DNA of 64,000 nt from assembly GCA_902462305.1 (NCBI GenBank), contig CABQBC010000008.1, forward strand, positions 20,775-84,774. The letters are read 5' to 3'. The notes beneath the pieces are model-generated. The model ran no database searches, had not been told where the DNA came from, and saw only the letters and a program-made list of their open reading frames with translations. This DNA is from an uncultured Flavobacteriales bacterium (GTDB lineage Bacteria > Bacteroidota > Bacteroidia > Flavobacteriales > UBA1820). Made by a program: the position numbers and the translations under genes. Every line of letters begins with the position of its first letter. Position 1 is the first letter of the stretch. Below are positions 21,992 through 64,000 of the stretch, in pieces.

Positions 21992-22094
21992 ATGCTTTTC
22001 GTTTTTTATCAATGGTACAAAATTACGCACGGCGAGGACATTTTTTTGAACCGACCGGACGTATTTTGTAAAAAATCCCACAACAACGGTGCTA

Positions 22095-43444: not shown

Positions 43445-43452
43445 CGATCCTA

Positions 43453-43659
43453 ATGAGCGGAAAGAAGACATACGGTTTTTCATTTTCATGGAAGCGTGCG
43501 CTGGGCATATCGGGCCTTAGGCAGAAACTAGCCCGAAGGACAGGTGTCCCCACTACTCTTTCTGGTATGGAGCGCAAAACGGGTTCTTTGATCATAAGAA
43601 CTATAACGGATTCTTTCTCCTGGCTGTATCACAGGATTGGTAACAAAACCGGTAAATAA
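43453..43659 (+). CDS. small basic protein, unknown function (68 aa)
   Basis: This in-frame ATG lies inside track ORF 43246-43659, 9 nt after the hflX stop, and reads MSGKKTYGFSFSWKRALGISGLRQKLARRTGVP.... A hairpin plus T-run at 43671-43701 follows immediately. There is no family recognition. Confidence 0.4.
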   Translation: MSGKKTYGFSFSWKRALGISGLRQKLARRTGVPTTLSGMERKTGSLIIRTITDSFSWLYHRIGNKTGK

Positions 43660-43670
43660 ACAAGAATAAA

Positions 43671-43701
43671 CCGGCTACGGCCTGTTCCGTGGCCGGTTTT
43701 T
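43671..43701 (+). terminator. terminator upstream of mnmE (ends the hflX / small-ORF transcript)
   Basis: A 10-bp stem (ccggctacgg / ccgtggccgg, with one G-T wobble) and a 6-nt loop, followed by T5. Confidence 0.7.
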
Positions 43702-43724
43702 AAATATTTAAAACTATAAAAAAC

Positions 43725-45953: not shown

Positions 45954-46559
45954 ATGTGCACAAAAGAGAGCAAAATGAATTACAAATTTGACGGAAGCAA
46001 GGTGTATTTTACATCGGACACGCACTTTTATCATTCGAATATTATTAGCTTTTGCAAGAGGCCATTCAAGAATGTAGAAGATATGAATGAAACACTGATC
46101 GAAAATTGGAACCGGGTAGTTAGTCAAGATGATATCGTATTTCATCTGGGGGATTTTTGCCTGGGAGGATCCCATGAATGGACCAAGATTCTTAACAGAC
46201 TGAATGGGAAAATCTATCTCATTCTCGGTAATCATGATCTAAAAAATATCAGGCAAGGGTACACCTGTAGGTTTGAATTGACAACCATGCAAATGCACAT
46301 AGAGGTCGATAAGCAGAAAATCTACCTGAACCACTGTCCGCTCCTCTGTTATGGAGGTGCTTACGGGAATACGTGGCAACTGTTTGGGCACGTGCATACG
46401 TGCAAATATAACACGGGAAAAGACGCTTCACGACTGGATATGCTCTTTCCAACGCAATATGATGTGGGAGTGGATAATAATGACTTTACTCCGGTCTCAT
46501 TCGCGCAGGTAAAAAGGATAATCCAAAAGCAGATTGAACAATCAAATAAAAAACAGTAA
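45954..46559 (+). CDS. metallophosphoesterase (calcineurin-like, small COG4186-like type)
   Basis: 201 aa (an alternative start is the ATG at 45975). Motifs are FTSDTHFYH, HLGDF, LGNHD and GHVH. Confidence 0.8.
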   Translation: MCTKESKMNYKFDGSKVYFTSDTHFYHSNIISFCKRPFKNVEDMNETLIENWNRVVSQDDIVFHLGDFCLGGSHEWTKILNRLNGKIYLILGNHDLKNIRQGYTCRFELTTMQMHIEVDKQKIYLNHCPLLCYGGAYGNTWQLFGHVHTCKYNTGKDASRLDMLFPTQYDVGVDNNDFTPVSFAQVKRIIQKQIEQSNKKQ

Positions 46560-46560
46560 T

Positions 46561-47283
46561 ATGACAATACAATACATGAGCGATCTGCATTTTGAGTTCC
46601 GGGAGAACAGCAGATACATAAAACATAACGAATTCCCTGTAACGGGCGATATACTCGTATTGGCCGGAGACATTTTCTATCTGAAAGACAGAGTGGCTCC
46701 TTTGGGGAATTTCTGGAAATGGGCTTCTAAAAACTACAGACAGGTTCTTATTGTTCCCGGAAACCACGAGTATTACAATTATTGTGATGTAATGGAACGG
46801 GGATTACAATGGCGATGGATGTTCAAAGAGAATGTCGGTTATTATCAAAATAAAGTTTTGATAATAACCGACACCGATTTCATAATGAGCACACTCGGGT
46901 CGCATATCGAACCTGCAGACGAATATTTCGTTTGGAAAGGACTTAACGATTTCCGTCAGACCATGTATAAAGGGAAACTGCTCCAAACGGAAGCATATAA
47001 TCAGATGCATGACTTCTGTTTAGGTCATATCAAAAAGAGTCTTGCCGAAAGTACGGCAAAACACATAATGGTCGTAACTCACCACCCGCCTACTTTGCAG
47101 GTTGTTGCTCCTCAGCATAAAGGTTCCGTATTGAACATTGCATTTGCCAGTGAATACAGAGACCTGATCGGTAACAGCCGGATCGATGCTTGGATTTACG
47201 GACATTCGCATACCAACATCGACACGGAAATCGGGAGTACAAAAGTGAATTGCAACCAGATGGGATATATATTTAAAAACTAG
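46561..47283 (+). CDS. metallophosphoesterase (calcineurin-like)
   Basis: The track ORF uses a TTG at 46534. The ATG at 46561 lies 2 nt after the upstream stop and gives MTIQYMSDLHFEF. Further motifs are AGDIF, PGNHEYY, VTHHPP and GHSHTN. Confidence 0.82.
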   Translation: MTIQYMSDLHFEFRENSRYIKHNEFPVTGDILVLAGDIFYLKDRVAPLGNFWKWASKNYRQVLIVPGNHEYYNYCDVMERGLQWRWMFKENVGYYQNKVLIITDTDFIMSTLGSHIEPADEYFVWKGLNDFRQTMYKGKLLQTEAYNQMHDFCLGHIKKSLAESTAKHIMVVTHHPPTLQVVAPQHKGSVLNIAFASEYRDLIGNSRIDAWIYGHSHTNIDTEIGSTKVNCNQMGYIFKN

Positions 47284-50463: not shown

Positions 50464-52107
50464 ATGCCTACACTGACTTGGATAGGAAAAGATAAAGTTG
50501 TGAATCATCATCAGGAGGTGCCATATCGGGTGCTGGAACACCAGTACGGGTTTCGGGCGGAGGATACAGATGATAAGACACCGACAAACAGCGGCAACAA
50601 GATCATACACGGCGACAACTTAGAGGCGCTGAAATCATTGCTACCCGAATACGAAGGTCGCGTTAAGTGCATCTATATCGATCCGCCGTACAATACGGGC
50701 AACGAAAAGTGGGTTTACAATGACAATGTGAACGACCCGAAAATCAAGAAGTGGCTGGGCGAGGTAGTCGGCAAGCAGGGCGAGGATTTGAGCCGTCATG
50801 ACAAGTGGCTTTGCATGATGTATCCGCGCCTGAAACTGCTGCACAAGTTATTGGCGGAAGACGGAGTTATTTTCATTTCGATTGACGATAACGAGCAGGC
50901 GAATTTGAAATTGCTGTGCGATGAAATATTCGGGGCGAATAAATTTGTCGGACAAGCAGTTTGGTTCAAAAAAAGAAAAGGATCATACTTGTCTAAAGAA
51001 TTTGTAAGCCTTACGGAGTACGTAATTTGTTATAGAAAAAATGATAAATTGAATCTATATGGAGGAAAGCCTAATAGTGGAGAATCTCAACCACTAGTAA
51101 AAAGAACCAACACTGTTGGATTACTAACTTTTCCAGCTAATATTGTTAGAACAAGACTTTTAGATAAGACATATCAATCGGGAATATACGGCAAAGGATC
51201 AAGTTCTGTTGAATTGTTAACGGATATTCATATCGAAAATGGAAGAATCATTAATGAATTTCAGCTTAAAGGGCCTTTTATTTGGACGCAAGACTTTTTA
51301 AATAGTGAATTAAAACAAGGTGCTGAAATCGTAATTAATACAATAAATTTACAGCCTCGAGTATTTAGAAATTCAGATGATAAATATAAAGGATTCCCAT
51401 CTTTTATTGATGGGCGTGAATTTTCTGCAACAAATGATGATGCTTATGAAAATTTAATAGACATCTTTGAAGAAGAAGGTATTTTCAATTATTCCAAACC
51501 TATGGAATTTGTTTCATTTTGTATCAATTCAATAGCATATTTCGATAAAAACGCCATTATCCTCGACTCCTTCGCCGGTTCAGGGACAACAGCCCATGCC
51601 GTACTGAATCTGAATAAGAAAGATGACGGTAACCGCAAATTCATTTTGGTTGAAATGGAAGATTATGCCGAAAACATTACTGCTGAGCGTGTACGGCGAG
51701 TAATGAAAGGTTACGGCGAGGGTAAAAATGCCGTAGCCGGAACGGGCGGCGCATTCGACTATTACGAGTTGGGCGAACGGATGTTCGACGAGAATCAAAA
51801 CCTCAACGAGAATATCGGCGAAGAGAAGATCCGCGAATATATCTACTACACCGAAACCAAGCGACATTTGGAACGCGAACGCACCAAAGTCGCTAAATAT
51901 CTGTTGGATACATACAATGCGACGGGTTACTATTTCTATTATGAAAAAGATTGTCTTACGACGCTAAGCATCGATACGCTGCATATCGTGACGGAGCGTG
52001 CCGAGCAGTATGTTATTTACGCCGACATCTGCACTGTACCGCCTCAAGTGATGGCAGCCCAAAATATTATTTTCAAAAAGATTCCGCGCGACATCAAACG
52101 ATTCTAA
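50464..52107 (+). CDS. mod: type III restriction-modification methyltransferase (Mod), beta-class N6-adenine/N4-cytosine type
   Basis: 547 aa. Motif IV DPPYNTG (50680-) precedes a variable middle region, which precedes motif I DSFAGSGTTAHA. This IV-TRD-I order is typical of Mod. The gene is directly followed by res. Confidence 0.88.
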   Translation: MPTLTWIGKDKVVNHHQEVPYRVLEHQYGFRAEDTDDKTPTNSGNKIIHGDNLEALKSLLPEYEGRVKCIYIDPPYNTGNEKWVYNDNVNDPKIKKWLGEVVGKQGEDLSRHDKWLCMMYPRLKLLHKLLAEDGVIFISIDDNEQANLKLLCDEIFGANKFVGQAVWFKKRKGSYLSKEFVSLTEYVICYRKNDKLNLYGGKPNSGESQPLVKRTNTVGLLTFPANIVRTRLLDKTYQSGIYGKGSSSVELLTDIHIENGRIINEFQLKGPFIWTQDFLNSELKQGAEIVINTINLQPRVFRNSDDKYKGFPSFIDGREFSATNDDAYENLIDIFEEEGIFNYSKPMEFVSFCINSIAYFDKNAIILDSFAGSGTTAHAVLNLNKKDDGNRKFILVEMEDYAENITAERVRRVMKGYGEGKNAVAGTGGAFDYYELGERMFDENQNLNENIGEEKIREYIYYTETKRHLERERTKVAKYLLDTYNATGYYFYYEKDCLTTLSIDTLHIVTERAEQYVIYADICTVPPQVMAAQNIIFKKIPRDIKRF

Positions 52108-52111
52108 CCTT

Positions 52112-54739
52112 ATGGAACTCAAACAATATCAAAAAGAGGTAATCGCCGATTTGGATGCATATATCGGGTATGTTGAAAAATACAACCGCCCCGATACGGC
52201 ATTCCATAAATTCTGGGAAGACAAAGGTATTCCGATCTCGGCAATCGACAATTACTATCTGCACCCGTACGACAACAGCATTACCGATTTGCCTCATGTA
52301 ACGGTCAAAGTGCCAACCGCCGGCGGCAAGACTTTTATAGCCTGCAATGCACTGAATACGATATTCAAGCATCTGCCCGCTGACAAGCCGAAAGTCGTGG
52401 CGTGGTTCGTGCCGTCGGATACGATTCTGAAACAGACCTATAAAAATCTGAACGACCCGTCGCACCCCTACCGGCAGAAGATCGACAGTCATTTCGGCAA
52501 TGCCGTATGCGTTGTCGACAAAGAAGCAGCATTGTTCGGGCATGGCATAAGTCCGACGGAGATTCGCGAGCAGCTGACTATTTTCGTATTGAGCGTGCAA
52601 TCGTTCGCCGCCAACAACAAGGACGGGCGACGTGTCTACCGTGAAAACGAGAATCTGGCGGAGTATGCCAAATTGTACGACACGATGACCAAACGAGTGG
52701 AAGGCTCAGACGAAACGGGATTGATCCAGGTACTGTCGTATCTGAATCCGGTCGTCATCATCGACGAAAGTCATAACTTCGAGGCCAACCTACGTGTGGA
52801 TATGCTTAAGGCTATCAATCCGTGTTTCATTCTCGACCTGACGGCGACGCCCCGCAATAAGAGCAATATCATCAGTTTCGTGGATGCCATTAAGCTCAAA
52901 CGGGCTAATATGGTGAAATTGCCGGTTATCGTATATAACCATCGCTCGACGAATGATGTCGTTTCGAGTGCGATACAGATGCAGCGTAGTCTGGAACAAA
53001 AAGCCATTGCGATGGAGGCAGAAGGTAGCCGGTACATTCGACCGATTGTGCTGTTCCAAGCCCAGCCGAAAACCGATGACGACAATATTACGTTCGACAA
53101 GATCAAAAAGAAGCTTATCGAAATCGGCATTCCTGAAGACCAAATAAAAATCAAAACGGCGAACAAAGACGAAATTAGAAACACCGACTTGTTGTCCCGC
53201 GACTGTCCGGTGCGTTACATCATTACGGTCAATGCGCTGAAAGAGGGCTGGGATTGTCCGTTCGCCTACATTCTCGCATCGCTGGCCAACAAGACCTCGC
53301 GGGTGGATGTCGAACAGATACTGGGCCGCGTATTGCGTCTGCCCTATACGACCAAGCACAAAGAGGAATTGCTTAACCTGTCATATGTATTTACCTCGTC
53401 CAACGATTTTCGGAATACGGTCGAGAATATCATAGAGGGGTTGAACCGTGCAGGCTTCAGCAAAAAGGATTACCGCGTAGCCGAGGCCCAGACAGAACCC
53501 GCTCCCGTTCCGACCGGGCAATCGTCTCCGAACCTGTTCGGCGACGACGAGCCGGTGCACGATACGCCTGCAATCACGACAACCGACGACATCGATGAGC
53601 AGATAAACACCGAAACGATTAAAACGGCGATTGCAACACCCTCCGAAAATACGGGGACGATCGAACTGGAGTCTTTTGCCCGGAAGGAGAATGAGAGCTA
53701 CAATCAACAGATGGCGCAGCAGACAGATAATAACGACATTCCGAATGATATTAAAGGTATGATAACCACATATCCGATTAAAGATATTTTTGCGGACAAA
53801 GCCAAAGAACTGGCATTGCCCCAATTCGTGAAAAAGATAAATGCCAACTTGATATTTGACGATGAATATGTTCCGTTGGACAAGGCTATGCTTGCTGAAG
53901 GGTTCGATTTGGACAAGTGCGACCACAATATCGACTTTACCCGAACCGAAAGTGAAGCGGTGCGTGTAGACCTGGAAAAATCCAGCGGAGATGAATATGC
54001 CGTTACAAGAAGAAACCTGACTGCAAATCAATTATCATTCATCAAACAACACTTTGCGACCTTATCGCCGGAAAGCAAACAGAGGCAACTGGCAGACATG
54101 TTAGCAAAAGGCCTTCGTTTCGACGAAATCTCCGAACCGCAGGTTGCACGTTATATCAAAAGGGCTATTGCAGGCGTAGATTCCGAGCAACTCGAAGATT
54201 TATACACGAACGATTGGCAGACAAGAAATACGATTCGCCAGAAGATCGAGTCGCTGCTGTCTGCCTATCAAGAAAAGAAATTCAAAGAGTGGCTCGACAC
54301 CGGTCAGATAAAATGTCAAGCTACATATCGCCTTCCGGAGCGGATAACCGTGAAAACAAAGTCCATCGGCTTGGCAAAAGGGCTTTATACGGAAGAGGAA
54401 AACATCAACGGTTTCGAGTATGACGTTATAAACGCTGTTGCCAATTTGGATAATGTTCTATTTTGGCATAGAAATCCGAGCCGCACGGGGTTCTGTATAA
54501 ACGGTTATATAAATCATTATCCCGACTTTATCGTCCTATTGAATAGCAACATTACCGTTCTTCTTGAAACAAAAGGCGATGATAGAGATAACTCAGACAG
54601 TCGGACGAAGGTCGAGTTAGGAAGGACTTGGGCCCATAAAGCAGGCGAGCAGTATCGTTATTTTATGGTATTCGAGAAGCAACAGATGGATGGTGCGGTT
54701 ACTATCAAGGAACTTTTGCAAAGATTGAGTGCAATGTAA
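52112..54739 (+). CDS. res: type III restriction enzyme Res subunit (SF2 helicase-nuclease)
   Basis: 875 aa with Walker A VPTAGGKT, DEAH-like IIDESHN, helicase C motifs (LKEGWDCPF, QILGRVLR), and a C-terminal PD-(D/E)xK-like block YPDFIVLL...VLLETKGDD. Confidence 0.88.
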   Translation: MELKQYQKEVIADLDAYIGYVEKYNRPDTAFHKFWEDKGIPISAIDNYYLHPYDNSITDLPHVTVKVPTAGGKTFIACNALNTIFKHLPADKPKVVAWFVPSDTILKQTYKNLNDPSHPYRQKIDSHFGNAVCVVDKEAALFGHGISPTEIREQLTIFVLSVQSFAANNKDGRRVYRENENLAEYAKLYDTMTKRVEGSDETGLIQVLSYLNPVVIIDESHNFEANLRVDMLKAINPCFILDLTATPRNKSNIISFVDAIKLKRANMVKLPVIVYNHRSTNDVVSSAIQMQRSLEQKAIAMEAEGSRYIRPIVLFQAQPKTDDDNITFDKIKKKLIEIGIPEDQIKIKTANKDEIRNTDLLSRDCPVRYIITVNALKEGWDCPFAYILASLANKTSRVDVEQILGRVLRLPYTTKHKEELLNLSYVFTSSNDFRNTVENIIEGLNRAGFSKKDYRVAEAQTEPAPVPTGQSSPNLFGDDEPVHDTPAITTTDDIDEQINTETIKTAIATPSENTGTIELESFARKENESYNQQMAQQTDNNDIPNDIKGMITTYPIKDIFADKAKELALPQFVKKINANLIFDDEYVPLDKAMLAEGFDLDKCDHNIDFTRTESEAVRVDLEKSSGDEYAVTRRNLTANQLSFIKQHFATLSPESKQRQLADMLAKGLRFDEISEPQVARYIKRAIAGVDSEQLEDLYTNDWQTRNTIRQKIESLLSAYQEKKFKEWLDTGQIKCQATYRLPERITVKTKSIGLAKGLYTEEENINGFEYDVINAVANLDNVLFWHRNPSRTGFCINGYINHYPDFIVLLNSNITVLLETKGDDRDNSDSRTKVELGRTWAHKAGEQYRYFMVFEKQQMDGAVTIKELLQRLSAM

Positions 54740-54752
54740 TTAGCAGATAGCT

Positions 54753-55661
54753 ATGGACGATAATAAAATAATTATTTACCAAGACGATAACGACGTAACG
54801 CGAGTGTCCGTTCGTTTTGCTGACGAAGATTTGTGGCTTACGCAGAATCAGCTGGCTGAGATATACGATACGACGCAGGAGAATATCTCCATGCACATTG
54901 CGAACATATATCGAGACGGAGAGTTGGAGTTGGACCGAACTTATAAGAAATTCTTATTAGTTCGTACCGAAGGTTCTCGGCAAGTGAAACGCAATATCGA
55001 CCATTACAACCTAGATATGGTTATCGCGTTGGGCTATCGCGTTCAATCACAGATCGCCACACGATTCCGTCGCTGGGCAACGCTTCGGCTTCACGAATAT
55101 ATCCAGAAGGGCTTTGTGATGGACGATGAACGACTCAAACAGGGCGGGAATCGCTATTTCAGGGAACTCTTGCAGCGCATACGGGATATTCGCAGCAGTG
55201 AACGCAATTTCTATCAGCAGGTTACGGATATTTACGCGACCGCCGTCGACTATGATCCACGCAGCGATATGACCAAAACATTCTTCGCTACGGTTCAGAA
55301 TAAGCTGCACTATGCCGTTCACGAGAATACCGCAGCCGAGGTAATCTATAACCACGTGGACAACGAAAAGCCTTTTGTCGGAATGACAAACTTCAAAGGC
55401 AACTATGTAACCAAAGACGATGTGAAAATTGCCAAGAACTATTTATCGGAAATCGAATTGCAACGGTTGAATCTTTTAGTATCGGGATTTTTGGATTTCG
55501 CAGAATTTCAGGCGTTGGAGATGAATCCGATGACAATGAAAGATTGGATTGAGACGCTCGATAATCAAATTATCGCCAACAAGTGCAAGGTATTGGCAGG
55601 CAAAGGCACTGTTTCCAAAAAGCTGAAAAGGAGTTCGACATATACCGTCGGCGCGAAATGA
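54753..55661 (+). CDS. rhuM: RhuM-family protein, C-terminal tail shifted out of frame
   Basis: 302 aa with IIYQDDNDVTRVSVRFADEDLWLTQNQLAEIY...NISMHI..IY, YNLDMVIALGYRV and FYQQVTDIYATAVDYD. The expected tail AEKEFDIYRRREMSLFESDFDRAIKML is encoded from 55622 to 55723 in another frame, after an A5 run at 55617-55621. Confidence 0.8.
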   Translation: MDDNKIIIYQDDNDVTRVSVRFADEDLWLTQNQLAEIYDTTQENISMHIANIYRDGELELDRTYKKFLLVRTEGSRQVKRNIDHYNLDMVIALGYRVQSQIATRFRRWATLRLHEYIQKGFVMDDERLKQGGNRYFRELLQRIRDIRSSERNFYQQVTDIYATAVDYDPRSDMTKTFFATVQNKLHYAVHENTAAEVIYNHVDNEKPFVGMTNFKGNYVTKDDVKIAKNYLSEIELQRLNLLVSGFLDFAEFQALEMNPMTMKDWIETLDNQIIANKCKVLAGKGTVSKKLKRSSTYTVGAK

Positions 55662-55730: not shown

Positions 55731-56360
55731 ATGATTCGCGAACTAACCTACAATAACAGGATACTGTCCGAACAAGAACGTGCAGAGTTCTGCAAAAAAT
55801 CAGATGAAGATATACACGAGTTTTCCGAGTGTATTGAGGGAATATGCCAACTTGCAAAGGAGGTTCCGGAATCTGAAAATTCTGATTATAACAAAATAAC
55901 TAATACAATAATCAATATCAGCACTTTTACAGGTTACTCTTTTTGTGATTGCATCGTATTGACAAAATTATTTGTCAAGGCGACGAATCCGTATGAAAAA
56001 AGTTTTCTTCGGGGCAAACTGAAGGTTCAACTGAATGAAGGCTTCAAAAAGCTATATGGGTTTAACAAGAAGGGGTATAAAGATTCATATTGCGCACATT
56101 TAGAAGATATTATAACAATGTTCCCCGGATTCAAGGACGAATTTGATGAACTATTGTCAGACTTGGAGCAAATTTCAAAAAATTCTTGGTGGAAAGACGA
56201 AAGAGATGCTGAAGTACACATCGACGCGACCAAACTCTATGAACTACGACATGAAGAGATAAATGAGAGTAAAATTGTCATGGAAGCAGTGCAATTAACG
56301 GATTTATTCAACCGTTTTAATCATCTTGTAGCCAGATTGCATCGAGTGTATCTCAATTAA
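55731..56360 (+). CDS. hypothetical protein (209 aa), no recognisable domain
   Basis: A clean ORF starting 8 nt after the out-of-frame rhuM tail. It is predicted helical, with several Cys near the N-terminus (CKK...CIEGIC...CDC). Confidence 0.55.
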   Translation: MIRELTYNNRILSEQERAEFCKKSDEDIHEFSECIEGICQLAKEVPESENSDYNKITNTIINISTFTGYSFCDCIVLTKLFVKATNPYEKSFLRGKLKVQLNEGFKKLYGFNKKGYKDSYCAHLEDIITMFPGFKDEFDELLSDLEQISKNSWWKDERDAEVHIDATKLYELRHEEINESKIVMEAVQLTDLFNRFNHLVARLHRVYLN

Positions 56361-56859: not shown

Positions 56860-57078
56860 ATGGGAAAAGAACTCAATCGACTAAAAGTGGTGCTTGCTGA
56901 AAAGAGACGCACTAATAAATGGTTGGCACAACAGCTTGGTAAAGACCCTGCTACTGTATCCAAATGGTGTACTAATACAGCGCAGCCTTCACTTGAGACA
57001 CTTTCTGATATTGCCATGAGTCTTGAAGTTGACGTTAAGGATTTACTTCAATCGTCAATTAAGAAACAGGATTATTAA
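56860..57078 (+). CDS. XRE-family helix-turn-helix regulator (controller-protein-like), heads the M/S/kinase operon
   Basis: 72 aa. LKVVLAEKRRTNKWLAQQLGKDPATVSKWCTNTAQPSLETLSDIAMSLEVDVKDLL follows the same HTH_3 pattern as the 50118 gene. Confidence 0.85.
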   Translation: MGKELNRLKVVLAEKRRTNKWLAQQLGKDPATVSKWCTNTAQPSLETLSDIAMSLEVDVKDLLQSSIKKQDY

Positions 57079-57132
57079 AATAGACCAAGATGGATATGGC
57101 AATAACTTTAAACTTATGTAATTTTGTATAAT

Positions 57133-59154
57133 ATGGCTAACTATGACATCGACAAAAAGCAGTTGCAGGATGAGGTTGTCCTTGATGACAACCAACTTGT
57201 CTGTGTCTTGACCAATTCTATAAAAACCGCCACCGAGAAAGAACTTCTTCTTCAATCTATAATCAACCAGATGGACGAGGAATATGAATTTGATCTTTCC
57301 GATATGAAACGCAACTATTCTTTCTCATATGAAGATGATGAGGGAAAGAAAAAGCGCATGACTATAGACTTGGCAATATTCCCTCATGGAGCAGAGAAAG
57401 AACCGGAAAATATAGAGCGTATTTGCATTGTCTTTGACTCTAAGGCAAAAGAAAGCGATAAGAAGAAGGGTGTCGAGGCTACTCTTCATAAGGCACTCCA
57501 AGCTACAGGGTGCGACTTCGGAATGTGGACTAATGGAGATAAACAATTCTTTGCCTATAGAAAAGAAGATGAGATTGGCAATGAACGAATTGAAGATATT
57601 AGCGATTTCCCCGGTTGCGATGAAACCATAGAAGATCTTGAAAGCATGGGCGACCGTGCCCAACCTCGTAAGGCTGCCAATGATACTCTTATTCGCACGT
57701 TTAAGCGTTGTCATGACTATCTTTACGGAAACGAGGGTAGAAAAAAGGATGCGTTTTGGGAACTTCTCAATCTGATATTTTGTAAGATTTTCGATGAAAA
57801 ACGTCGCTTTTCGGATACCGAGAAGGGGTTCAGTTATCGCCGCCAGTTCTGGGTTGGCGTTACAGAACAGAATACACCTGAAGGTCAAGCTACAGTTGCC
57901 AAACGAATTAAGGATATCTTTGAGAAACTGAAAAAGGATGACCTTTTTAAAACAGTCTTTGACGGAAACGAGCAGATTAGTTTGTCTGACCGAGGCGTTG
58001 CCTATGTCGCATCGCAGATAGCCAAATACAATTTCCTTGATGCTACTGTTGACGTCAAGGGTACTGCTTACGAAACAATCGTAAGCAATACTCTCAAACA
58101 GGAGGCTGGTCAGTTCTTCACACCACGCAATATAATAAAGTGTATGGTTGAGATTATGAATCCAAACCAGAATTGTCGCGTGCTCGACCCAGCTTGTGGT
58201 AGTGGAGGTTTTCTTGTAATGGTTCTCGACCATGTACGTCGCCAAATAACCCGCAATATCTATTCAGCTCGTTCCGAAGCTGAGATTGAGGCTCTATCAA
58301 ATACTGATGAAATAGTCAATAGAATTGTTCGTCAATATGCTGAGTCGATGATATTCGGTTTCGATTTTGACCCTGACTTGAAGAAAGCCGCAAAGATGAA
58401 TATGGTTATGGCAGGTGACGGACATAGCAACATATTCAATATCAACTCACTTGAATATCCTAATGGTTCATTGCCTGACCTCGGACGTATAAATGAAGCG
58501 ATCAAGACAAGCGTTGACCATAGAGGCGACTATGCCACATGTGACCAACATGCGGCTAAAGACAGTGCCTTCGGCAAGTTCGATATGATATTTACAAATC
58601 CACCCTTTGGCTCAAAGGTTGAGGTTGCACAGGGCATTGTGGAACACTATGAACTGTCAGCATGGATAAAATCGCCAGAGGGACTGTTCATAGAGCAATG
58701 TTATAACTTCCTAAAACCGGGTGGTAAAATGGCTATAGTCTTACCTGATGGCATACTCAGCAACCCCAATACTGAAAAGGTTCGTGAATGGATACTTTCA
58801 AAGTTCAAGCTGATTGCATCCATAGACCTTCCGGTCGAGGCATTTCTGCCGCAAGTAGGCGTTCAGTCATCACTACTCTTCTTACAGAAGAAGACAGGTA
58901 TTGAACTTGGTCAGAAGGAAGATTATGAAGTATTCATGGCAATAGCCGAAAAGGTTGGCAAAGACCGCAGAGGCAATCCTATTTACAAACGGGATGACGA
59001 TGGTGCAGAAATTCTCTACCCGACAAAGAAAGAATGGGCAGCCCGTAATCGTCATGGAGAACTCGTAACTCGCAGTCGTATAGAACGAGTGCGCCAGCTC
59101 GATGATGACCTTCCGGAAATTTCAGAGGAATATAAAAAAATTATGGGGATATGA
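57133..59154 (+). CDS. N6-adenine DNA methyltransferase, HsdM-like core with an N-terminal HsdR_N / PD-(D/E)xK-like module
   Basis: The track ORF starts at a TTG at 57124; the first ATG is at 57133 (MANYDIDKK). Core motifs are QFFTPRNIIKCMV, DPACGSGGFL (motif I) and FTNPPFGSK (motif IV). The N-terminal region contains KKRMTIDLAIF...ERICIVFDSKAK. Confidence 0.88.
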   Translation: MANYDIDKKQLQDEVVLDDNQLVCVLTNSIKTATEKELLLQSIINQMDEEYEFDLSDMKRNYSFSYEDDEGKKKRMTIDLAIFPHGAEKEPENIERICIVFDSKAKESDKKKGVEATLHKALQATGCDFGMWTNGDKQFFAYRKEDEIGNERIEDISDFPGCDETIEDLESMGDRAQPRKAANDTLIRTFKRCHDYLYGNEGRKKDAFWELLNLIFCKIFDEKRRFSDTEKGFSYRRQFWVGVTEQNTPEGQATVAKRIKDIFEKLKKDDLFKTVFDGNEQISLSDRGVAYVASQIAKYNFLDATVDVKGTAYETIVSNTLKQEAGQFFTPRNIIKCMVEIMNPNQNCRVLDPACGSGGFLVMVLDHVRRQITRNIYSARSEAEIEALSNTDEIVNRIVRQYAESMIFGFDFDPDLKKAAKMNMVMAGDGHSNIFNINSLEYPNGSLPDLGRINEAIKTSVDHRGDYATCDQHAAKDSAFGKFDMIFTNPPFGSKVEVAQGIVEHYELSAWIKSPEGLFIEQCYNFLKPGGKMAIVLPDGILSNPNTEKVREWILSKFKLIASIDLPVEAFLPQVGVQSSLLFLQKKTGIELGQKEDYEVFMAIAEKVGKDRRGNPIYKRDDDGAEILYPTKKEWAARNRHGELVTRSRIERVRQLDDDLPEISEEYKKIMGI

Positions 59155-60554
59155 TAGCCGGTAAAATGAAAATATCAGCTGTTGGAGAATGTCGTTCTCG
59201 CTTAGATGGTTCATATCATTTAAGTGAGGCTCAAATTGTAAAAAAGAAAATAGCGGCTTCTCCTTACCCCCTTTTGAATATAGGGAAAGTAACTGAAAGA
59301 ATCTGGCACGCTGGTCGTTGGAAAAGAGTATATGTTGATAATCCTAAGACTGGCATTACACTTTTAGGCAGCTCTGCCATGCTTAAAGGCGATTTATCTC
59401 ACGAAAAGCTTGTATCCAAGAGATACACAGATGACATTTCGGATAAAATCCTGCAAGCAGGATGGATTCTTATATCATGTTCTGGCACAATAGGTAATTG
59501 CGCGTTTACAAACGCGCAACATGCTGGGAAGCTTGCTTCCCAGGATGTTATTCGGCTTAAGCCGAATAACATCCTGGGGGCTGGACTGATATATGCATAT
59601 CTTGCCTCAAAATATGGGTATGTCATGCTCACACAAGGAACATCAGGCTCTGTTATACAGCATATTGAACCAGAAAATGTCGAAGTAATTCCAATTCCCA
59701 ACTTTCCGGATTCATTTAAAAATAATGTAAACCAACTTATACAAGACTCTTCAAAACTAAGAGATGAAGCTATGTATGAGTTAGATGCAGCGGACAAACT
59801 TTTAAAAGAGAAGGCCGGATTGCGGCCATTAACACCGGAAGACTATGATTACTTTGGTCAGCATAGTGCAACTCGGAAGCCAAGTTGCTTTATTCGCAAC
59901 AGTAATGAGATATCGACCCGTTCAATAAATGCGTTCAACTATTCACAAAGACTTGAACGACTGAAAAGATTACTTCCAGCGTCAAGGCCTTTGCGTAATA
60001 TTCTTTTGAATAATACAACATTTTCTACCGGTTCTTTTCCTCGAATAGAAGTAAAAAGGGGGAACGGAGTAATGCTTATTAATCAGTCTGATGCCTTTGA
60101 CACAATCATAAATGGCAAATGGATTTCATCACGCAATGTCAATCTTTCCAATCTTGTATCTTATGGAGAAGTTATTGTGGCGGGAGTAGGCACACTTGGC
60201 GAAAATGAAACCTTTTGTAGGACATTTTTCGCTAATGAAGATTTGAAAGGACAACTCATATCCGGAGAGTTCATCCGTATGAAAACTACGAGTGATATAC
60301 CTTCAGGATTCCTCTATGCATGGCTTAATTCTGAATATGGTTTTCGCCTTATTAGAGGGACACAGGCTGGCACAAAATTATGCCGTCCCATCCCGGAAGC
60401 ATTTCTCGACATACCTGTCCCAATTCTTGCAAATGAAGACATGAACGAGATTGATCGTATGGTCAGAGACGCACACACAAAACGCCGTCTGGCTAACGAG
60501 AAAGAATTGAAAGCCATAGCAATGGTAGAGGCTGAGATAGAGAAATGGAATTAG
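59151..60554 (+). CDS. restriction-modification specificity subunit (HsdS-like, two target-recognition domains)
   Basis: 467 aa. The ATG overlaps the methylase stop (ATGA). Two homologous halves each end in a helical spacer (…IPIPNFPDSFKNNVNQLIQDSSKLRDEAMYELDAADKLLKEK and …IPVPILANEDMNEIDRMVRDAHTKRRLANEKELKAIAMVEAEIEKW). Confidence 0.85.
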   Translation: MIAGKMKISAVGECRSRLDGSYHLSEAQIVKKKIAASPYPLLNIGKVTERIWHAGRWKRVYVDNPKTGITLLGSSAMLKGDLSHEKLVSKRYTDDISDKILQAGWILISCSGTIGNCAFTNAQHAGKLASQDVIRLKPNNILGAGLIYAYLASKYGYVMLTQGTSGSVIQHIEPENVEVIPIPNFPDSFKNNVNQLIQDSSKLRDEAMYELDAADKLLKEKAGLRPLTPEDYDYFGQHSATRKPSCFIRNSNEISTRSINAFNYSQRLERLKRLLPASRPLRNILLNNTTFSTGSFPRIEVKRGNGVMLINQSDAFDTIINGKWISSRNVNLSNLVSYGEVIVAGVGTLGENETFCRTFFANEDLKGQLISGEFIRMKTTSDIPSGFLYAWLNSEYGFRLIRGTQAGTKLCRPIPEAFLDIPVPILANEDMNEIDRMVRDAHTKRRLANEKELKAIAMVEAEIEKWN

Positions 60555-60580: not shown

Positions 60581-63500
60581 ATGGCAAAACTTTGTACTCC
60601 AATACATAGCACAGGACCCGTGAATGCCGGAGAGAAGCATTTATTTGACTTCCTACAAGTTAACTTGCCTGACAGCTATTATATCATACCCAATGGTGAA
60701 TATCCCTATATCAATCCGAATGGGGGTACTCAGTTCATGGAGTGCGACTGCATCGTGGTTGCTCCCCATGCAATCTATCTTATCGAAAACAAGGACTACA
60801 AAGGCCGTCTTGAAGCATACGATAGCGCATGGTTTCATAACGACCGAGAAATTAAGAATCCTATTAAGGGTGTTACATTCAAAGGCAAAGTCCTTAGCGA
60901 CTATCTAAAACGCAAGAACGGACATTGGAAGGCTGCATGGATTGAATCTATTGTAACCCTAAGTAACCTCAATCAGAACAAATCAGGATTTGAGGCCGGC
61001 TCTGCCAGCGACAACAAGACATTCCTGCTCAATGATGAACTTATCAATTTCATTAAGGAGCCTGACAGGTTGCCTCATTATGTCCCGGCAAGTGCGATTG
61101 CGTCTTACCAATTCGACATTACCGACTATCTTATGGGTAGCAGTGTTAGTCGGGCTCACGTCCGCACTAATGTATGTGGTATGATTATCGACGAGATACT
61201 TGATACTACTGATGATTATGTAGAATACCTTTGCCATAAGAAATTCCCAACTGACAAAAAGTATAAGGTTCGCGATTACGCATTAAATCAGGTCGGTATG
61301 TCGCCCGTTCAGATTGAGAAGTATGAAAAGTTGGTCCATAATGGTGAGATTACCGAGGATTATCTTCCTGACAATACCGGGGTAATCATTAAGAGTCGGT
61401 TTGAGTCGGAGGAGAATCACTATTATGTGATAACGCCCTATCAAGATGACCGTTCTCTACGAAGTGAGATGGCTCGCAACACATTCACAGAGTTGGATAA
61501 GATTCAGATTTTGTTGAATGTCGCTGAGGCTCTCTCTTTAGCTCATGAACAGAATGTGATACATAGAGATGTGCGTCCGGAGAATATTTTTATCCAATCA
61601 GACCGCAGGGCTGCGCTTGCTAATTTTGGGTTGGCATATAACGAAGCTCACGATGACGCAAGCTTTAATGTCACTGTAGATTTAGAGGATTTCGACTTGA
61701 ATGCCTATACTTCTGAGGATGTATTTATTGGAGACTACTCAGCAGCATCGGATGTTTATTCTTTCGGAGTTCTTGCCTATGAGCTAATGACAGGACAGAA
61801 GTTGCCATTCGACAATTTCAAAGAGTTGTTGATGAAAGGTGGTAAACTTCCCAAGGATTTGCTTCCCTCTGCGGTAAATTCCAACGTTGAGAAATGGGTG
61901 GATGAACTTTGCGAAAGAACAATAGTTGTTGATCCGACCGAAAGATGGGCCAACATAGATGAAGTACGCCAATTCATCTTTGAGAATGGTATAATTGCCC
62001 ACACGCAGCAATCCTCAGCTCCTGAAGCCAATGGAAGTCTTGATGACTTGAAACCTACAGACCGTATTACCAACGACATAGTTCTTGGTGAAATGCTTGG
62101 CGAAGGTGGATTCTCAAAGGTTTTCAAAGCAAAACACCAATATCAGCCCGGTGCTTTATATGTCGCCAAAATATTCAAAGAGGGCGTAAGCCCACAAGCA
62201 ACTGTTGATGAATTCAAGGCATTGAATGACCTGAATCATCCGAACATAGTGAGATTCCGTGGAAACGGGACAACCAATGGAGGGTTGTTCTATACTCTTA
62301 TGGACTATGTTGATGGAACAGACATCCGCCGCTATGCGAGTGGCGACACATTCCTTCCTCTCACACTGGTGAAATCATTTCTCAAACAAATGATTTCTGC
62401 TCTTGTGTATATACAGGAAAAACAGCCTCCGGTAATACACAGAGACATCAAGCCTGAAAATATAATGTATCGCAAAGATGGGGCGTTCGTGCTCATCGAT
62501 TTCAACATAGCTACAAACAAGGAAGGAGATCGACATAAGGTAGGCACTTATCGTTATGTGGCACCCGACCTGACAGTCGGAAGCAAGATGAACTGGGACT
62601 TAGGTGCAGATACATTTGCTCTAGGAGTCACGGCATATGAATTATTAAGCCATATCTATCCTTGGGGAAGTAGTCAGACACCTGTTCTTGACCAGACTCC
62701 GGTCAACATCCTTGACAGGAATCACCTCATTTCCGATAAATTCGCAAAATTCATAATGAAGGCTTGCGAAACACGAAAGGAGAACCGATTCCAAAACGCC
62801 AAAGAAATGCAAGAGGCATTTGATACTCTTGATCGTATAGATTCCTCTATTGAATTTTATAGTAAGGATGGGACAGAATACAATATCGTCGATTATATTA
62901 ATTCCCTCTATAGTCAGAGTGAACGAGGTAATGCCGGAACTCGTGCAGGATTTAAGAACGACAACATTCTTGACAAACTGACATATACCGAGACGCGCCT
63001 CGACTCCAAACTTTTAGAAGACATAAAGCATGGTGACTATAAGCTTATAATCATAACCGGTAATGCCGGCGATGGCAAGACTGCGTTTATACGTCAGGTT
63101 GAGAACGCCGGAACAGATCTCAATTATGTTGAGTCCCGCAATGGCGCAAAATTCCGTCTGGGTGGCGTCATATTTGAAAGTAACTACGATGGTTCTCAAG
63201 ATGAACATAACCTAAAGAATAACGATGTTCTGGCAAAGTTTTTTGAGCCATTCATCGGTATTGAGGATTATCGAAGTGCTGTGGAGGGCCGCATAATTGC
63301 TATTAATGAAGGTCGATTGATGGAATATCTGGAGTCAACTCCGGAGCTTACGGGATTACATAATGCCATTGACGAATACTTTTACAAAGAGGGTGTTGCC
63401 ACCCTTCCTGACGGCGTCATGGTTATTAATCTTAATCTTCGTTCGGTTACTGCCCTTGACGAAAATGGAGAGTCATTGTTGCGCAAACAGGTAAAGGTTT

Positions 63501-64000
63501 TGACCGATAAGAAGTTTTGGAACAAATGTCTGGGATGTCCGATAGCCGACCGTTGCTTCATTAAATATAACGTCGATTCACTCAACGATTCGGCTGTTGG
63601 CAACGAGATAATAAAACGTCTGGAGTGGATAGTCCGCACAATCGTATATAAACGGGAACTCCATATAACCATGCGTGATTTGCGCTCAATGATAGCGTGG
63701 ATGCTTACTCGTGATTATTCGTGCGCAGACATGCCCCACCTTATTGAATTATTAGATAAGGCAAAAAAAGAATACGAAGAGACACTGGAAGATGCGACTG
63801 ACGAGGAAAAGAATAATCGCAGGACCACATACGAACTTGAACGGCAAAGGTGGTGGACGCGCTATTATTTCAACATTACGGCGCCTGAACATTCATGGTT
63901 CCCCAATCAGCACTCCGAAGACCGAGTCGTAAAACTTCTGCGTGAAACAGATATTGCAAATGTTGCAATACCAGAGCTTGATCGAAATCTCTATTTCAGT
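60581..64000 (+). CDS. giant multidomain protein with NERD, kinase-like (degenerate), Ser/Thr kinase, P-loop NTPase and Cys cluster; C-terminus outside the window
   Basis: Not in the ORF track because there is no stop. I translated 60581-64000 by hand and found 1140 codons with no stop. Key motifs are ECDCIVVAPHAIYLIENK (NERD), HRDVRPEN + NFG, GEGGFS / YVAKIF / HRDIKPEN / DFN / GTYRYVAPD, ITGNAGDGKT and CLGCPIADRC. Confidence 0.85.
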   Translation, partial: MAKLCTPIHSTGPVNAGEKHLFDFLQVNLPDSYYIIPNGEYPYINPNGGTQFMECDCIVVAPHAIYLIENKDYKGRLEAYDSAWFHNDREIKNPIKGVTFKGKVLSDYLKRKNGHWKAAWIESIVTLSNLNQNKSGFEAGSASDNKTFLLNDELINFIKEPDRLPHYVPASAIASYQFDITDYLMGSSVSRAHVRTNVCGMIIDEILDTTDDYVEYLCHKKFPTDKKYKVRDYALNQVGMSPVQIEKYEKLVHNGEITEDYLPDNTGVIIKSRFESEENHYYVITPYQDDRSLRSEMARNTFTELDKIQILLNVAEALSLAHEQNVIHRDVRPENIFIQSDRRAALANFGLAYNEAHDDASFNVTVDLEDFDLNAYTSEDVFIGDYSAASDVYSFGVLAYELMTGQKLPFDNFKELLMKGGKLPKDLLPSAVNSNVEKWVDELCERTIVVDPTERWANIDEVRQFIFENGIIAHTQQSSAPEANGSLDDLKPTDRITNDIVLGEMLGEGGFSKVFKAKHQYQPGALYVAKIFKEGVSPQATVDEFKALNDLNHPNIVRFRGNGTTNGGLFYTLMDYVDGTDIRRYASGDTFLPLTLVKSFLKQMISALVYIQEKQPPVIHRDIKPENIMYRKDGAFVLIDFNIATNKEGDRHKVGTYRYVAPDLTVGSKMNWDLGADTFALGVTAYELLSHIYPWGSSQTPVLDQTPVNILDRNHLISDKFAKFIMKACETRKENRFQNAKEMQEAFDTLDRIDSSIEFYSKDGTEYNIVDYINSLYSQSERGNAGTRAGFKNDNILDKLTYTETRLDSKLLEDIKHGDYKLIIITGNAGDGKTAFIRQVENAGTDLNYVESRNGAKFRLGGVIFESNYDGSQDEHNLKNNDVLAKFFEPFIGIEDYRSAVEGRIIAINEGRLMEYLESTPELTGLHNAIDEYFYKEGVATLPDGVMVINLNLRSVTALDENGESLLRKQVKVLTDKKFWNKCLGCPIADRCFIKYNVDSLNDSAVGNEIIKRLEWIVRTIVYKRELHITMRDLRSMIAWMLTRDYSCADMPHLIELLDKAKKEYEETLEDATDEEKNNRRTTYELERQRWWTRYYFNITAPEHSWFPNQHSEDRVVKLLRETDIANVAIPELDRNLYFS

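What the first reader, a model, noticed from the sequence alone, without database searches (positions are those of the whole stretch)
60581..64000. Domain architecture of the giant ORF: NERD, then a degenerate (pseudo)kinase, an apparently active kinase, a P-loop NTPase and a Cys cluster
I translated 60581-64000 by hand in one frame and found no stop. Residues ~15-125 look NERD-like (GEKHLFDFL..., ECDCIVVAPHAIYLIENK). Residues ~200-465 have a kinase fold with catalytic loop HRDVRPEN (from 61562). This first kinase domain lacks a glycine-rich loop (LDTTDDYVEY sits there instead). Its Mg-binding DFG is replaced by NFG (61622-61630), which is a typical pseudokinase signature. Residues ~495-750 form a second kinase with the G-loop GEGGFS (62099-62116), the lysine block YVAKIF, HRDIKPEN (from 62438), DFN (62498-62506) and GTYRYVAPD. 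Residues ~820-915 form a P-loop NTPase (ITGNAGDGKT at 63059-63082, then VIFESNYDGSQDE and AINEGR). A CLGCPIADRC cysteine cluster follows, and at least 150 further residues continue before the window ends. A kinase-pseudokinase tandem resembles the architecture of plant tandem-kinase immune receptors and is also reported for PglW. A version with an N-terminal nuclease-related domain and a fused NTPase is, as far as I know, not characterised.
Basis: partly seen in the sequence, partly recalled or inferred. Interest (0 to 1): 0.85.

Follow-up and report, generated by a model that had tools for sequence, protein, structure and literature searches.

The report
MAD6 kinase of a MADS defence operon

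Summary
Window 60581-64000 is one open frame of 1140 codons that runs off the window end; full-length relatives are about 1390 aa. It contains NERD (15-127), a degenerate kinase (about 198-475), an active kinase (about 497-752), a P-loop domain and an invariant CxxCx5C cluster.

The claim that this is uncharacterised is wrong. The fragment scores 575.7 bits (cutoff 460) on NCBI's equivalog model for MADS protein kinase MAD6. The two genes upstream pass the MAD2 (methyltransferase) and MAD5 (specificity subunit) models. In every near-identical locus the operon continues with MAD7, MAD8 and a PP2C phosphatase. RefSeq already names homologues MAD6. A canonical 8-gene Piscinibacter MADS has a collinear 1391-aa MAD6.

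The "P-loop NTPase plus Cys cluster" is the published DndF/SspF core: canonical Walker A, Asn in Walker B, a large helical lid with a Zn-chelating insert. The fusion of NERD, inactive kinase and active kinase to that core was described in 2024. It is not PglW (222.7 bits against a cutoff of 990, different C-terminus, no BREX genes).

The one mildly new point is the subtype. Bacteroidota loci lack MAD3/MAD4 and add a translationally coupled PP2C. Interest is low.

The parts
56860..57078 (+). Small Cro/C1-type HTH regulator, in the position of mad1
   Evidence: Pfam HTH_26/HTH_3. The same 72-aa gene precedes the methylase in L001, L014 and L018. No MAD1-specific model hit, so the equivalence is positional only.
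57124..59154 (+). MAD2: N6-adenine DNA methyltransferase with an HSDR_N_2 N-terminal domain. The true start is probably a few codons downstream of the TTG.
   Evidence: NCBIfam NF047738 antiphage_MADS2, 763.2 bits against cutoff 720. Pfam N6_Mtase, Eco57I, HSDR_N_2.
59151..60554 (+). MAD5: Type I-like specificity (S) subunit. It overlaps the MAD2 stop by 4 nt.
   Evidence: NCBIfam NF047740 antiphage_MADS5, 490.3 bits against cutoff 400. Only 62% identical to the S subunit of otherwise 96%-identical systems.
60581..64000 (+). MAD6 (first 1140 of about 1390 codons): the ORF of the finding
   Evidence: NCBIfam NF047741 antiphage_MADS6, 575.7 bits against cutoff 460. 96% identical to the 1390-aa P0001. 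Collinear with a canonical 1391-aa MAD6.
60623..60961 (+). NERD (PD-(D/E)xK) nuclease domain, residues 15-127, catalytic D56/E69/K71 intact
   Evidence: Pfam PF08378, E 7e-14. D56, E69, K71 and E18 invariant in 116 homologues.
61172..62005 (+). Kinase-fold domain 1 (residues about 198-475), a pseudokinase: no Gly-rich loop, Arg231 at the beta3 Lys position, NFG instead of DFG
   Evidence: Pfam PK_Tyr_Ser-Thr on 276-415. AF2 kinase-like secondary structure. TYK2 pseudokinase-kinase is the top Foldseek hit. Conservation pattern. dN/dS 0.036.
62069..62836 (+). Kinase domain 2 (residues about 497-752), Hanks-type Ser/Thr kinase with all catalytic residues
   Evidence: Pfam Pkinase on 503-742. All catalytic motifs invariant, 116/116. 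PknB-like by Foldseek, TM about 0.8.
62885..63430 (+). DndF/SspF-type derived P-loop kinase core (residues about 769-950): N-terminal helical extension, Walker A GNAGDGKT (63059-63082), strand-2 SNYDG, Walker B IAINEG with Asn909
   Evidence: PADLOC SspF E 2.4e-19 and DndF E 1.7e-7 on the C-terminal half. Motifs invariant. Features match the DndF description in PMC10853773. AF2 pLDDT 85.
63431..64000 (+). Start of the enlarged helical lid of the P-loop kinase, including the CxxCx5C Zn-chelating insert (C983, C986, C992; 63527-63556). The lid continues and a C-terminal alpha+beta domain follows beyond the window.
   Evidence: The AF2 model of P0001 745-1390 is helical from about 966 to 1242, then alpha+beta from 1254 to 1382. 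The Cys residues are invariant, including in Piscinibacter. [quoted passage not shown]

Best explanation
The ORF encodes MAD6, the largest regulatory/sensor subunit of a MADS (methylation-associated defence system) operon. The operon sits on a mobile cassette in a gut Bacteroidales genome. Its order is HTH, MAD2 (m6A methyltransferase), MAD5 (specificity subunit), MAD6, then beyond the window MAD7 (DndG/SspG-like), MAD8 (about 1845 aa, HerA-type ATPase at the C-terminus, DndH-like) and a PP2C phosphatase.

Shown elsewhere (P. aeruginosa MADS):
- MAD2 methylates a bipartite motif on host DNA.
- DNA carrying the unmethylated motif is restricted.
- mad6, mad7 and mad8 are each required for defence.

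Shown here:
- MAD6 is a five-part protein: an intact NERD nuclease, a pseudokinase, a catalytically complete Ser/Thr kinase, and a DndF/SspF-type nucleotide-binding P-loop kinase with a Zn-bearing lid and a C-terminal alpha+beta domain.
- All parts are under strong purifying selection.

Inferred mechanism:
- MAD6-MAD7-MAD8 form a DndFGH-like restriction complex in which m6A, written by MAD2/MAD5, replaces phosphorothioate as the self mark.
- The DndF-like half of MAD6 binds a nucleotide and docks to MAD7/MAD8.
- On sensing unmodified invader DNA, the active kinase, allosterically controlled by its pseudokinase partner as in JAK-type tandems, phosphorylates complex or cellular targets.
- The NERD domain then acts as a (back-up) DNase.
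- The PP2C in this subtype resets or guards the phosphorylation state.
For: Family assignment:
- MADS6 model 575.7 bits against cutoff 460 on the window fragment.
- MADS2 763 against 720 and MADS5 490 against 400 on the two upstream genes.
- MADS7 538 against 410 and MADS8 178.7 against 175 on the downstream genes of the 96%-identical locus L001.
- The same operon occurs in L001, L004, L007, L010, L012, L013, L014 and L016.
- RefSeq names cluster members 'methylation-associated defense system protein kinase MAD6'.
- End-to-end BLASTP collinearity (E 3e-116) with the MAD6 of a locus where MAD3-8 all pass their models.

Domains.

DndF/SspF relationship:
- PADLOC SspF 2.4e-19 and DndF 1.7e-7 for the C-half; MAD7 hits SspG at 1e-9; the MAD8 C-terminus hits HerA.
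- Standalone relatives of about 590 aa hit SspF nearly full length at about 1e-27.
- The MADS authors noted Mad7~DndG and Mad8~HerA.

Function of MADS: bioRxiv 10.1101/2023.03.30.534895.

Selection: dN/dS 0.03-0.09.
Against: - The window ends inside MAD6, so MAD7, MAD8 and PP2C are inferred from relatives, not seen here.
- MAD3 and MAD4, which are required in P. aeruginosa, are absent, so the mechanism may differ in this subtype.
- No solved structure resembles the C-terminal half. Foldseek against the PDB gives only weak P-loop hits (E >= 7e-3), and phmmer finds nothing.
- The NCBIfam search did not list a DptF model at E <= 0.1, so the DndF link rests on PADLOC profiles and motif/architecture agreement.
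- No biochemical data exist for MAD6. The kinase substrates, the role of NERD and nucleotide binding are all inference.
Confidence: 0.88

Rival explanations
1. It is PglW, the kinase of a type 2 BREX / Pgl system.
For: PglW shares the N-terminal NERD + pseudokinase + kinase triad. The PADLOC PglW profile (positions 48-771 of 1403) aligns to residues 51-749 at E 4e-65. The PglW architecture is described in PMC12839542.
Against: - NCBIfam BREX_PglW scores 222.7 bits against a cutoff of 990 and covers only the N-terminal half.
- A genuine annotated PglW (Polaromonas, H9) matches only residues 290-747 at 26% identity.
- PglW's C-terminal half is alphaCTD-like + three wHTH + an inactive STAND domain with degenerate Walker motifs. 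This protein has an invariant Walker A and a DndF-type core.
- No PglX/BrxC/PglZ genes are in the window or in related loci. The neighbours are MAD2/5/7/8.
Confidence: 0.02
2. It is the DndF/SspF subunit of a phosphorothioate-dependent DndFGH/SspFGH restriction system that merely happens to lie next to a Type I-like methylase.
For: The C-terminal half hits SspF and DndF profiles, MAD7 hits SspG, and MAD8 has a HerA-type C-terminus. PMC10853773 files NERD + kinase-bearing proteins under DndF variants.
Against: - No dnd/ssp modification genes are in the window or in any related locus.
- The M and S genes overlap their neighbours and co-travel with MAD6-8 across Bacteroidota and Proteobacteria.
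- All of these genes pass MADS-specific equivalog models.
- In P. aeruginosa the self mark is m6A made by mad2.

So this is a homologous module in a different, already named system.
Confidence: 0.05
3. It is a self-contained abortive-infection kinase (Stk2 / PD-T4-6-like) that kills or arrests the cell by phosphorylating host proteins, with the neighbouring genes unrelated.
For: There are strong hits of kinase 2 to PD-T4-6 single-gene kinase models (E 6e-66). PMC10853773 proposes that the fused kinase/NERD act as suicidal co-effectors.
Against: PD-T4-6 matches cover only one kinase domain of about 260 aa. The other roughly 1100 residues, the tight operon (4-nt overlaps) and its conservation across phyla argue for a multi-subunit system. 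This reading is compatible with a sub-function of MAD6, but not with it being a stand-alone system.
Confidence: 0.04
4. The long ORF is an artefact: a pseudogene or a fusion created by a sequencing or assembly error.
For: None, beyond the unusual length and the truncation by the window end.
Against: 116 homologues of 1300-1500 aa are collinear. The codon alignment to an independent B. finegoldii assembly is gapless, with dN/dS 0.06. AF2 models of both halves are confident.
Confidence: 0.01

Closest known systems
MAD6 of the MADS system (prototype P. aeruginosa SMC4386; Maestri et al., bioRxiv 10.1101/2023.03.30.534895, published Cell Host Microbe 2024;32:1412; NCBIfam NF047741)
   Same: It passes the equivalog model. 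The length (about 1390 aa) and the order of all five modules match a canonical MAD6 (Piscinibacter L018). It shares the operon partners MAD2, MAD5, MAD7 and MAD8.
   Different: It is only 27% identical to the proteobacterial MAD6. The operon lacks MAD3 (AAA/OLD-like) and MAD4 (DUF4276) and has an added PP2C phosphatase gene coupled to MAD8. The pseudokinase is degenerate at different positions (NFG here; HRN with DFD there).
DndF/DptF and SspF (restriction subunits of the phosphorothioate-linked DndFGH / SspFGH systems), including the NERD + inactive/active kinase-fused DndF variants described in PMC10853773
   Same: The C-terminal half has the defining DndF core: helical N-extension, canonical Walker A, Asn in Walker B, a polar N..D at the end of strand 2, a helical lid of about 200+ residues with a Zn-chelating insert, and a C-terminal alpha+beta domain. 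Its partners resemble DndG/SspG and DndH (HerA).
   Different: There are no PT-modification genes; self-marking is by an m6A methyltransferase plus S subunit. Sequence similarity is detectable only at profile level (E 1e-7 to 1e-19), and the NCBIfam search listed no DptF model at E <= 0.1.
PglW (type 2 BREX / Pgl)
   Same: The N-terminal NERD, pseudokinase, active kinase triad is the same, and it also sits in a methylation-based defence system.
   Different: The C-terminal half is different (PglW: alphaCTD-like, three wHTH, inactive STAND). The PglW model cutoff is failed (222.7 against 990). There are no PglX/BrxC/PglZ partners.
JAK-family pseudokinase-kinase tandems (TYK2, PDB 4oli) and plant tandem-kinase immune proteins
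   Same: A pseudokinase immediately N-terminal to an active kinase. TYK2 JH2-JH1 is the top structural match of the N-terminal model (E 4e-20).
   Different: This is an architectural analogy only. Both kinase domains are bacterial Hanks-type (PknB-like), and there is no evidence of common descent of the tandem.

Membership tests
MAD6 (MADS system) | Scores above the curated cutoff of the NCBIfam equivalog model NF047741 (antiphage_MADS6) | tested here: met
   575.7 bits against cutoff 460 for the window fragment, covering model positions 1-610 of 612.
MAD6 (MADS system) | Operon with an N6-adenine methyltransferase (MAD2) and a specificity subunit (MAD5) | tested here: met
   Window 57124-59154 is MADS2 (763.2 against 720). 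Window 59151-60554 is MADS5 (490.3 against 400). They are on the same strand, with a 4-nt overlap and a 26-nt gap.
MAD6 (MADS system) | MAD7 and MAD8 immediately downstream (mandatory with MAD6 in the authors' MacSyFinder model) | not testable with these tools
   The window ends inside MAD6. In every relative with sequence downstream (L001-L007, L010-L018) MAD7 and MAD8 follow. The L001 proteins pass MADS7 (538 against 410) and MADS8 (178.7 against 175).
MAD6 (MADS system) | Full-length collinearity with the MAD6 of a canonical 8-gene MADS locus | tested here: met
   BLASTP of P0001 against Piscinibacter MAD6 aligns residues 1-1369, E 3e-116, with all motifs aligned. The neighbours of that locus pass MADS3, 4, 5, 7 and 8.
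MAD6 (MADS system) | Presence of MAD3 and MAD4 (accessory in the detection model, required for defence in P. aeruginosa) | tested here: not met
   There is no gene between MAD5 and MAD6 in the window. tblastn with MAD3/MAD4 finds nothing in the window or in any Bacteroidota locus.
MAD6 (MADS system) | Confers methylation-dependent protection against phage or plasmids | not testable with these tools
   Shown only for the P. aeruginosa prototype.
PglW (BREX type 2) | Scores above the cutoff of NCBIfam NF033442 (BREX_PglW) | tested here: not met
   222.7 bits against cutoff 990. Only model positions 45-766 of 1391 are aligned.
PglW (BREX type 2) | N-terminal NERD + pseudokinase + active kinase | tested here: met
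PglW (BREX type 2) | C-terminal alphaCTD-like helix bundle, three wHTH and an inactive STAND with degenerate Walker motifs (PMC12839542) | tested here: not met
   The C-half has an invariant Walker A GNAGDGKT and hits SspF/DndF, not PglW. The AF2 topology is a P-loop kinase + helical lid + alpha+beta domain.
PglW (BREX type 2) | Neighbourhood with PglX, BrxC/PglY, PglZ, BrxD, BrxHI | tested here: not met
   None are among the window's neighbours or in the related loci.
DndF / SspF | Derived P-loop kinase: canonical Walker A, Asn replacing Asp in Walker B, conserved N..D at the end of strand 2 | tested here: met
   GNAGDGKT, IAI-N909-EG and S-N868-Y-D870-G are all invariant in 116 homologues and in Piscinibacter. 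The strands are placed by AF2. The definition comes from PMC10853773.
DndF / SspF | Greatly enlarged helical lid (optionally with a Zn-chelating insert) followed by a C-terminal alpha+beta domain | tested here: met
   In the AF2 model of P0001 745-1390 (pLDDT 85, pTM 0.85), helices span about 966-1242, the CxxCx5C cluster lies between lid helices 1-3, and the alpha+beta domain spans 1254-1382. Zn binding itself was not tested.
DndF / SspF | Significant match to DndF/SspF sequence profiles | tested here: inconclusive
   PADLOC SspF E 2.4e-19 (partial: profile positions 39-272) and DndF 1.7e-7. Standalone relatives hit SspF nearly full length. No NCBIfam DptF model was listed at E <= 0.1. This supports homology, not membership sensu stricto.
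DndF / SspF | Partnered with phosphorothioate modification genes (dndABCDE / sspABCD) | tested here: not met
   No such genes are in the window's island or in the related loci. An M + S pair is present instead.

The most novel reading that the evidence does not exclude
The Bacteroidota loci form a distinct, experimentally unstudied MADS subtype. It has dispensed with MAD3/MAD4 (the OLD/Toprim-like pair that is essential in P. aeruginosa) and has instead recruited a PP2C phosphatase translationally coupled to MAD8.

In this reading the MAD6 kinase and the PP2C form a built-in phospho-switch on a DndFGH-like restriction complex. The switch would either gate the NERD/MAD8 nucleases or strip inhibitory phosphates added by phage kinases, of the kind shown to inactivate DndFGH (PMC12345140).
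Probability: 0.3. Interest if true: 0.45.

Novelty: already known. Interest (0 to 1): 0.18.

Why it matters
For the scan, this removes a false 'uncharacterised architecture' flag. The gene is a textbook MAD6, and current RefSeq rules would name it so.

It also gives a clear annotation of the last 7.6 kb of the window as the 5' half of a MADS cassette, next to a Type III R-M system in an mnmE-adjacent defence island.

Biologically, MADS has no known mechanism. The explicit mapping of MAD6-MAD7-MAD8 onto DndF/G/H-like modules, together with the observation that gut Bacteroidales carry a compact PP2C-containing version with rapidly swapping specificity subunits, gives concrete mutants to test. 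These are refinements of published ideas, not a new kind of system.

Tried and rejected
1. A PDB profile search with the full-length alignment A2 was swamped by kinase hits and told nothing about the C-half.
2. phmmer of the C-half against PDB sequences gave only a chance hit, E 0.75.
3. Foldseek of the confident C-half model against the PDB gave only weak generic P-loop/AAA+ matches (best E 7e-3; local TsaE/YjeE matches at prob 0.96-0.97). No solved DndF-like structure was found, so the DndF link could not be confirmed structurally.
4. The published Cell Host & Microbe MADS paper is not held. I therefore could not check whether it already states the MAD6-DndF equivalence or mentions PP2C. The preprint calls Mad6 only 'a protein kinase'.
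5. Model coordinates are not exposed, so the Zn-site geometry and the fourth ligand (candidates: invariant C1048 or H1028) could not be tested.
6. The PglW, stand-alone Abi kinase, PT-dependent DndF and artefact readings were considered and rejected (see rivals).
7. tRNA and Rfam scans of the window were empty.
8. The search of protein representatives and the third homology search were not used, because the family assignment was already decisive.


Full report
**Observation.** Window 60581-64000 (+) translates without a stop for 1140 codons, starting at an ATG, and runs off the window end. Pfam finds NERD on residues 15-127 (E 7e-14) and two separate protein-kinase stretches, 276-415 and 503-742. 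It gives only sub-threshold AAA/STAND hints around the Walker A at 809-842.

**Is it a real, intact gene?** A search of 5.8 billion proteins returned more than 370 clusters at E < 1e-10. Almost all are 1360-1390 aa and cover 100% of the query. The closest, P0001, is 96% identical and 1390 aa, so the window lacks about 250 C-terminal residues. The codon alignment to the independently assembled B. finegoldii copy is gapless. dN/dS is 0.06 overall and 0.03-0.09 in each domain, including the pseudokinase. A hidden frameshift or pseudogene is excluded.

**Domain details, from 116 full-length homologues.**
- NERD keeps the PD-(D/E)xK residues D56, E69 and K71 invariant.
- Kinase 1 (about 198-475) has no glycine-rich loop, has Arg231 where the beta3 lysine should be (113/116), keeps the HRD aspartate in only 70/116, and has Asn348 in place of the DFG aspartate in 112/116.
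- Kinase 2 (about 497-752) keeps every catalytic residue in 116/116: GxGxF, K530, E544, HRD D622, K624, N627, D640 and APD.
- Downstream, GNAGDGKT (Walker A), SNYDGSQDE, IAINEGR and C983/C986/C992 are invariant.
- The P-loop and lid region is the best conserved part of the protein (61-64% mean identity).

An AF2 model of residues 1-790 (pLDDT 84) shows two kinase folds. Its top PDB match is the TYK2 pseudokinase-kinase tandem (4oli, E 4e-20 over 600 columns), followed by PknB-type kinases.

**What it is.** The gene context decides the question. Directly upstream on the same strand are:
- an HTH gene (56860-57078);
- an N6-adenine methyltransferase (57124-59154);
- a specificity subunit (59151-60554), which overlaps the methylase stop by 4 nt.

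These score above the curated cutoffs of NCBI's equivalog models for MADS components MAD2 (763.2 against 720) and MAD5 (490.3 against 400). The window's ORF fragment scores 575.7 against a cutoff of 460 on antiphage_MADS6, 'methylation-associated defense system protein kinase MAD6'.

In every related locus with downstream sequence, the operon continues with a Pfam MAD7 protein (about 520 aa), a protein of about 1845 aa and a PP2C phosphatase. The L001 proteins pass MADS7 (538 against 410) and MADS8 (178.7 against 175). RefSeq already names cluster members from Bacteroides nordii and Prevotella denticola 'MAD6'.

A Piscinibacter plasmid carries the canonical eight-gene layout. Its MAD3, 4, 5, 6, 7 and 8 all pass their models, and its 1391-aa MAD6 aligns with P0001 from residue 1 to 1369 (E 3e-116). 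NERD, both kinases, Walker A, NYDGSQDE, IAINEGR and CxxCx5C are all in register.

MADS was discovered and validated in P. aeruginosa SMC4386. There mad2 makes m6A in a bipartite motif, unmethylated DNA is restricted, and mad2-4 and mad6-8 are required (bioRxiv 10.1101/2023.03.30.534895; published as Cell Host Microbe 2024;32:1412, cited).

**The C-terminal half.** Residues about 755-1390 of P0001 hit PADLOC SspF (E 2.4e-19) and DndF (E 1.7e-7). MAD7 hits SspG (1e-9), and the MAD8 C-terminus hits HerA. Searching with the C-half alone finds standalone proteins of about 590 aa (31-33% identity over 96% of the query). These in turn match SspF almost end to end at about 1e-27.

PMC10853773 defines the DndF core as follows:
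- a derived P-loop kinase with a helical N-extension;
- a canonical Walker A;
- Asn instead of Asp in Walker B;
- a conserved N..D at the end of strand 2;
- a helical lid of about 200 residues, sometimes with a Zn-chelating insert between lid helices 1 and 2;
- a fast-evolving C-terminal alpha+beta domain.

It states that some DndF proteins carry wHTH/NERD + inactive + active S/T/Y kinase at the N-terminus.

The AF2 model of the C-half (pLDDT 85, pTM 0.85) and the invariant motifs match each of these points. PMC12839542 repeats the description and contrasts it with PglW. The MADS authors themselves noted Mad7~DndG and Mad8~HerA. No solved structure resembles the C-half, so this link rests on profiles, motifs and predicted topology.

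**Not PglW.** The PglW model scores 222.7 against a cutoff of 990 and aligns only to the N-terminal triad. A genuine PglW (Polaromonas) matches only residues 290-747. PglW's C-terminal half (alphaCTD-like, three wHTH, inactive STAND) is different, and no BREX genes are nearby. The shared triad is a real modular resemblance, not family membership.

[quoted passage not shown] The rest is inferred.
- MAD6-MAD7-MAD8 are the counterpart of a DndFGH/SspFGH restriction complex, with m6A from MAD2/MAD5 replacing phosphorothioate as the self mark.
- The DndF-like half of MAD6 binds a nucleotide and interfaces with its partners.
- The active kinase, paired with a conserved but catalytically relaxed pseudokinase, signals by phosphorylation.
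- The intact NERD is a DNase effector or back-up effector.

Phosphorylation is known to switch off DndFGH when imposed by a phage kinase (PMC12345140). A resident kinase/phosphatase pair acting on such a complex is therefore plausible, but it is untested.

**What is mildly new.** All Bacteroidales loci examined (46-97% identity) and a Cytophagales plasmid lack MAD3/MAD4 and carry a PP2C gene overlapping the MAD8 stop by 4 nt. The canonical proteobacterial locus has MAD3/4 and no PP2C. Hymenobacter has neither, and a Bacillus plasmid has MAD6-8 without a recognisable M/S pair. The preprint does not mention a phosphatase. This looks like a compact subtype worth a line in an annotation, not a new kind of system.

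**Context.** The cassette shared with B. finegoldii, B. muris and Duncaniella starts at window position ~56367 at 88% nucleotide identity. In B. finegoldii it lies in an integrase/relaxase element beside mnmE. The window also has mnmE, at 43725-45086, followed by other defence genes. Near-identical copies in several Bacteroidales families indicate horizontal spread.

**Verdict.** The ORF is MAD6 of a MADS operon, which is already known. Interest is low (0.18).

Noticed in passing
window 59151-60554 (MAD5) against L001/L007/L014: The specificity subunit is only 62% identical to that of systems whose MAD2 and MAD6 are 96% identical (77% in L010, 91% in L009). This suggests swapping of target-recognition domains, so near-identical MADS machines probably recognise different motifs.
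   Followed up: partly
L001 21302-21967; L004 21213-21899; L016 15632-16336; also L007, L010, L012, L013, L014: A PP2C phosphatase gene overlaps the MAD8 stop codon by 4 nt in all Bacteroidales loci and in Chondrinema, and these loci lack MAD3/MAD4. The canonical Piscinibacter MADS has MAD3/4 and no PP2C. This is a possible distinct subtype with a kinase/phosphatase switch.
   Followed up: partly
window 50464-54739: A Type III restriction-modification pair lies just upstream of the MADS cassette: Mod at 50464-52107 (PADLOC MTase_III, E 5e-169) and Res at 52112-54739 (REase_III, E 4e-74).
   Followed up: partly
window 54753-55661 and 55731-56360: A RhuM-family gene (Pfam E 1e-101; PADLOC candidate PDC-S05) and a 209-aa ORF with no family hit lie between the Type III R-M system and the MADS cassette. 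A RhuM gene also flanks the MADS cassette in L001 and L014.
   Followed up: no
window ~56367: This is the left boundary of DNA homology (88% identity, continuing to the window end) with the B. finegoldii / L001 MADS cassette. Upstream of it the window and those loci differ, which is consistent with modular cassette exchange.
   Followed up: partly
window 42146-45086: Housekeeping hflX (42146-43444) and mnmE (43725-45086) precede the defence genes. In B. finegoldii the MADS-bearing integrase/relaxase element is inserted directly beside mnmE, which suggests an mnmE-adjacent integration hotspot or defence island.
   Followed up: partly
window 45954-47283: Two calcineurin-like metallophosphoesterase ORFs (45954-46559 and 46534-47283) overlap in different frames. 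They may be one frameshifted gene or two short paralogues.
   Followed up: no
L018 11053-15228 (Piscinibacter MAD6): The pseudokinase domain is degenerate at different positions than in the window's protein: HRN with the catalytic-loop Asn lost, but DFD retained. Loss of catalysis in kinase 1 is therefore ancient, while the individual substitutions are lineage-specific.
   Followed up: partly
L015 (B. thuringiensis pKK1) 7254-22785: A MAD6 that barely passes the model (463.8 against 460) is followed by MAD7- and MAD8-like genes. It has no recognisable MAD2/MAD5; instead, 255-aa and 1308-aa hypothetical proteins lie upstream. This may be a MADS relative with a different modification module.
   Followed up: no
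L004/L005 7052-9987: In the 46%-identity Bacteroides clade, two extra genes sit between MAD5 and MAD6, where MAD3/MAD4 would otherwise be: a CpXC-domain protein (223 aa) and a 754-aa protein with faint WG_beta_rep hits.
   Followed up: no
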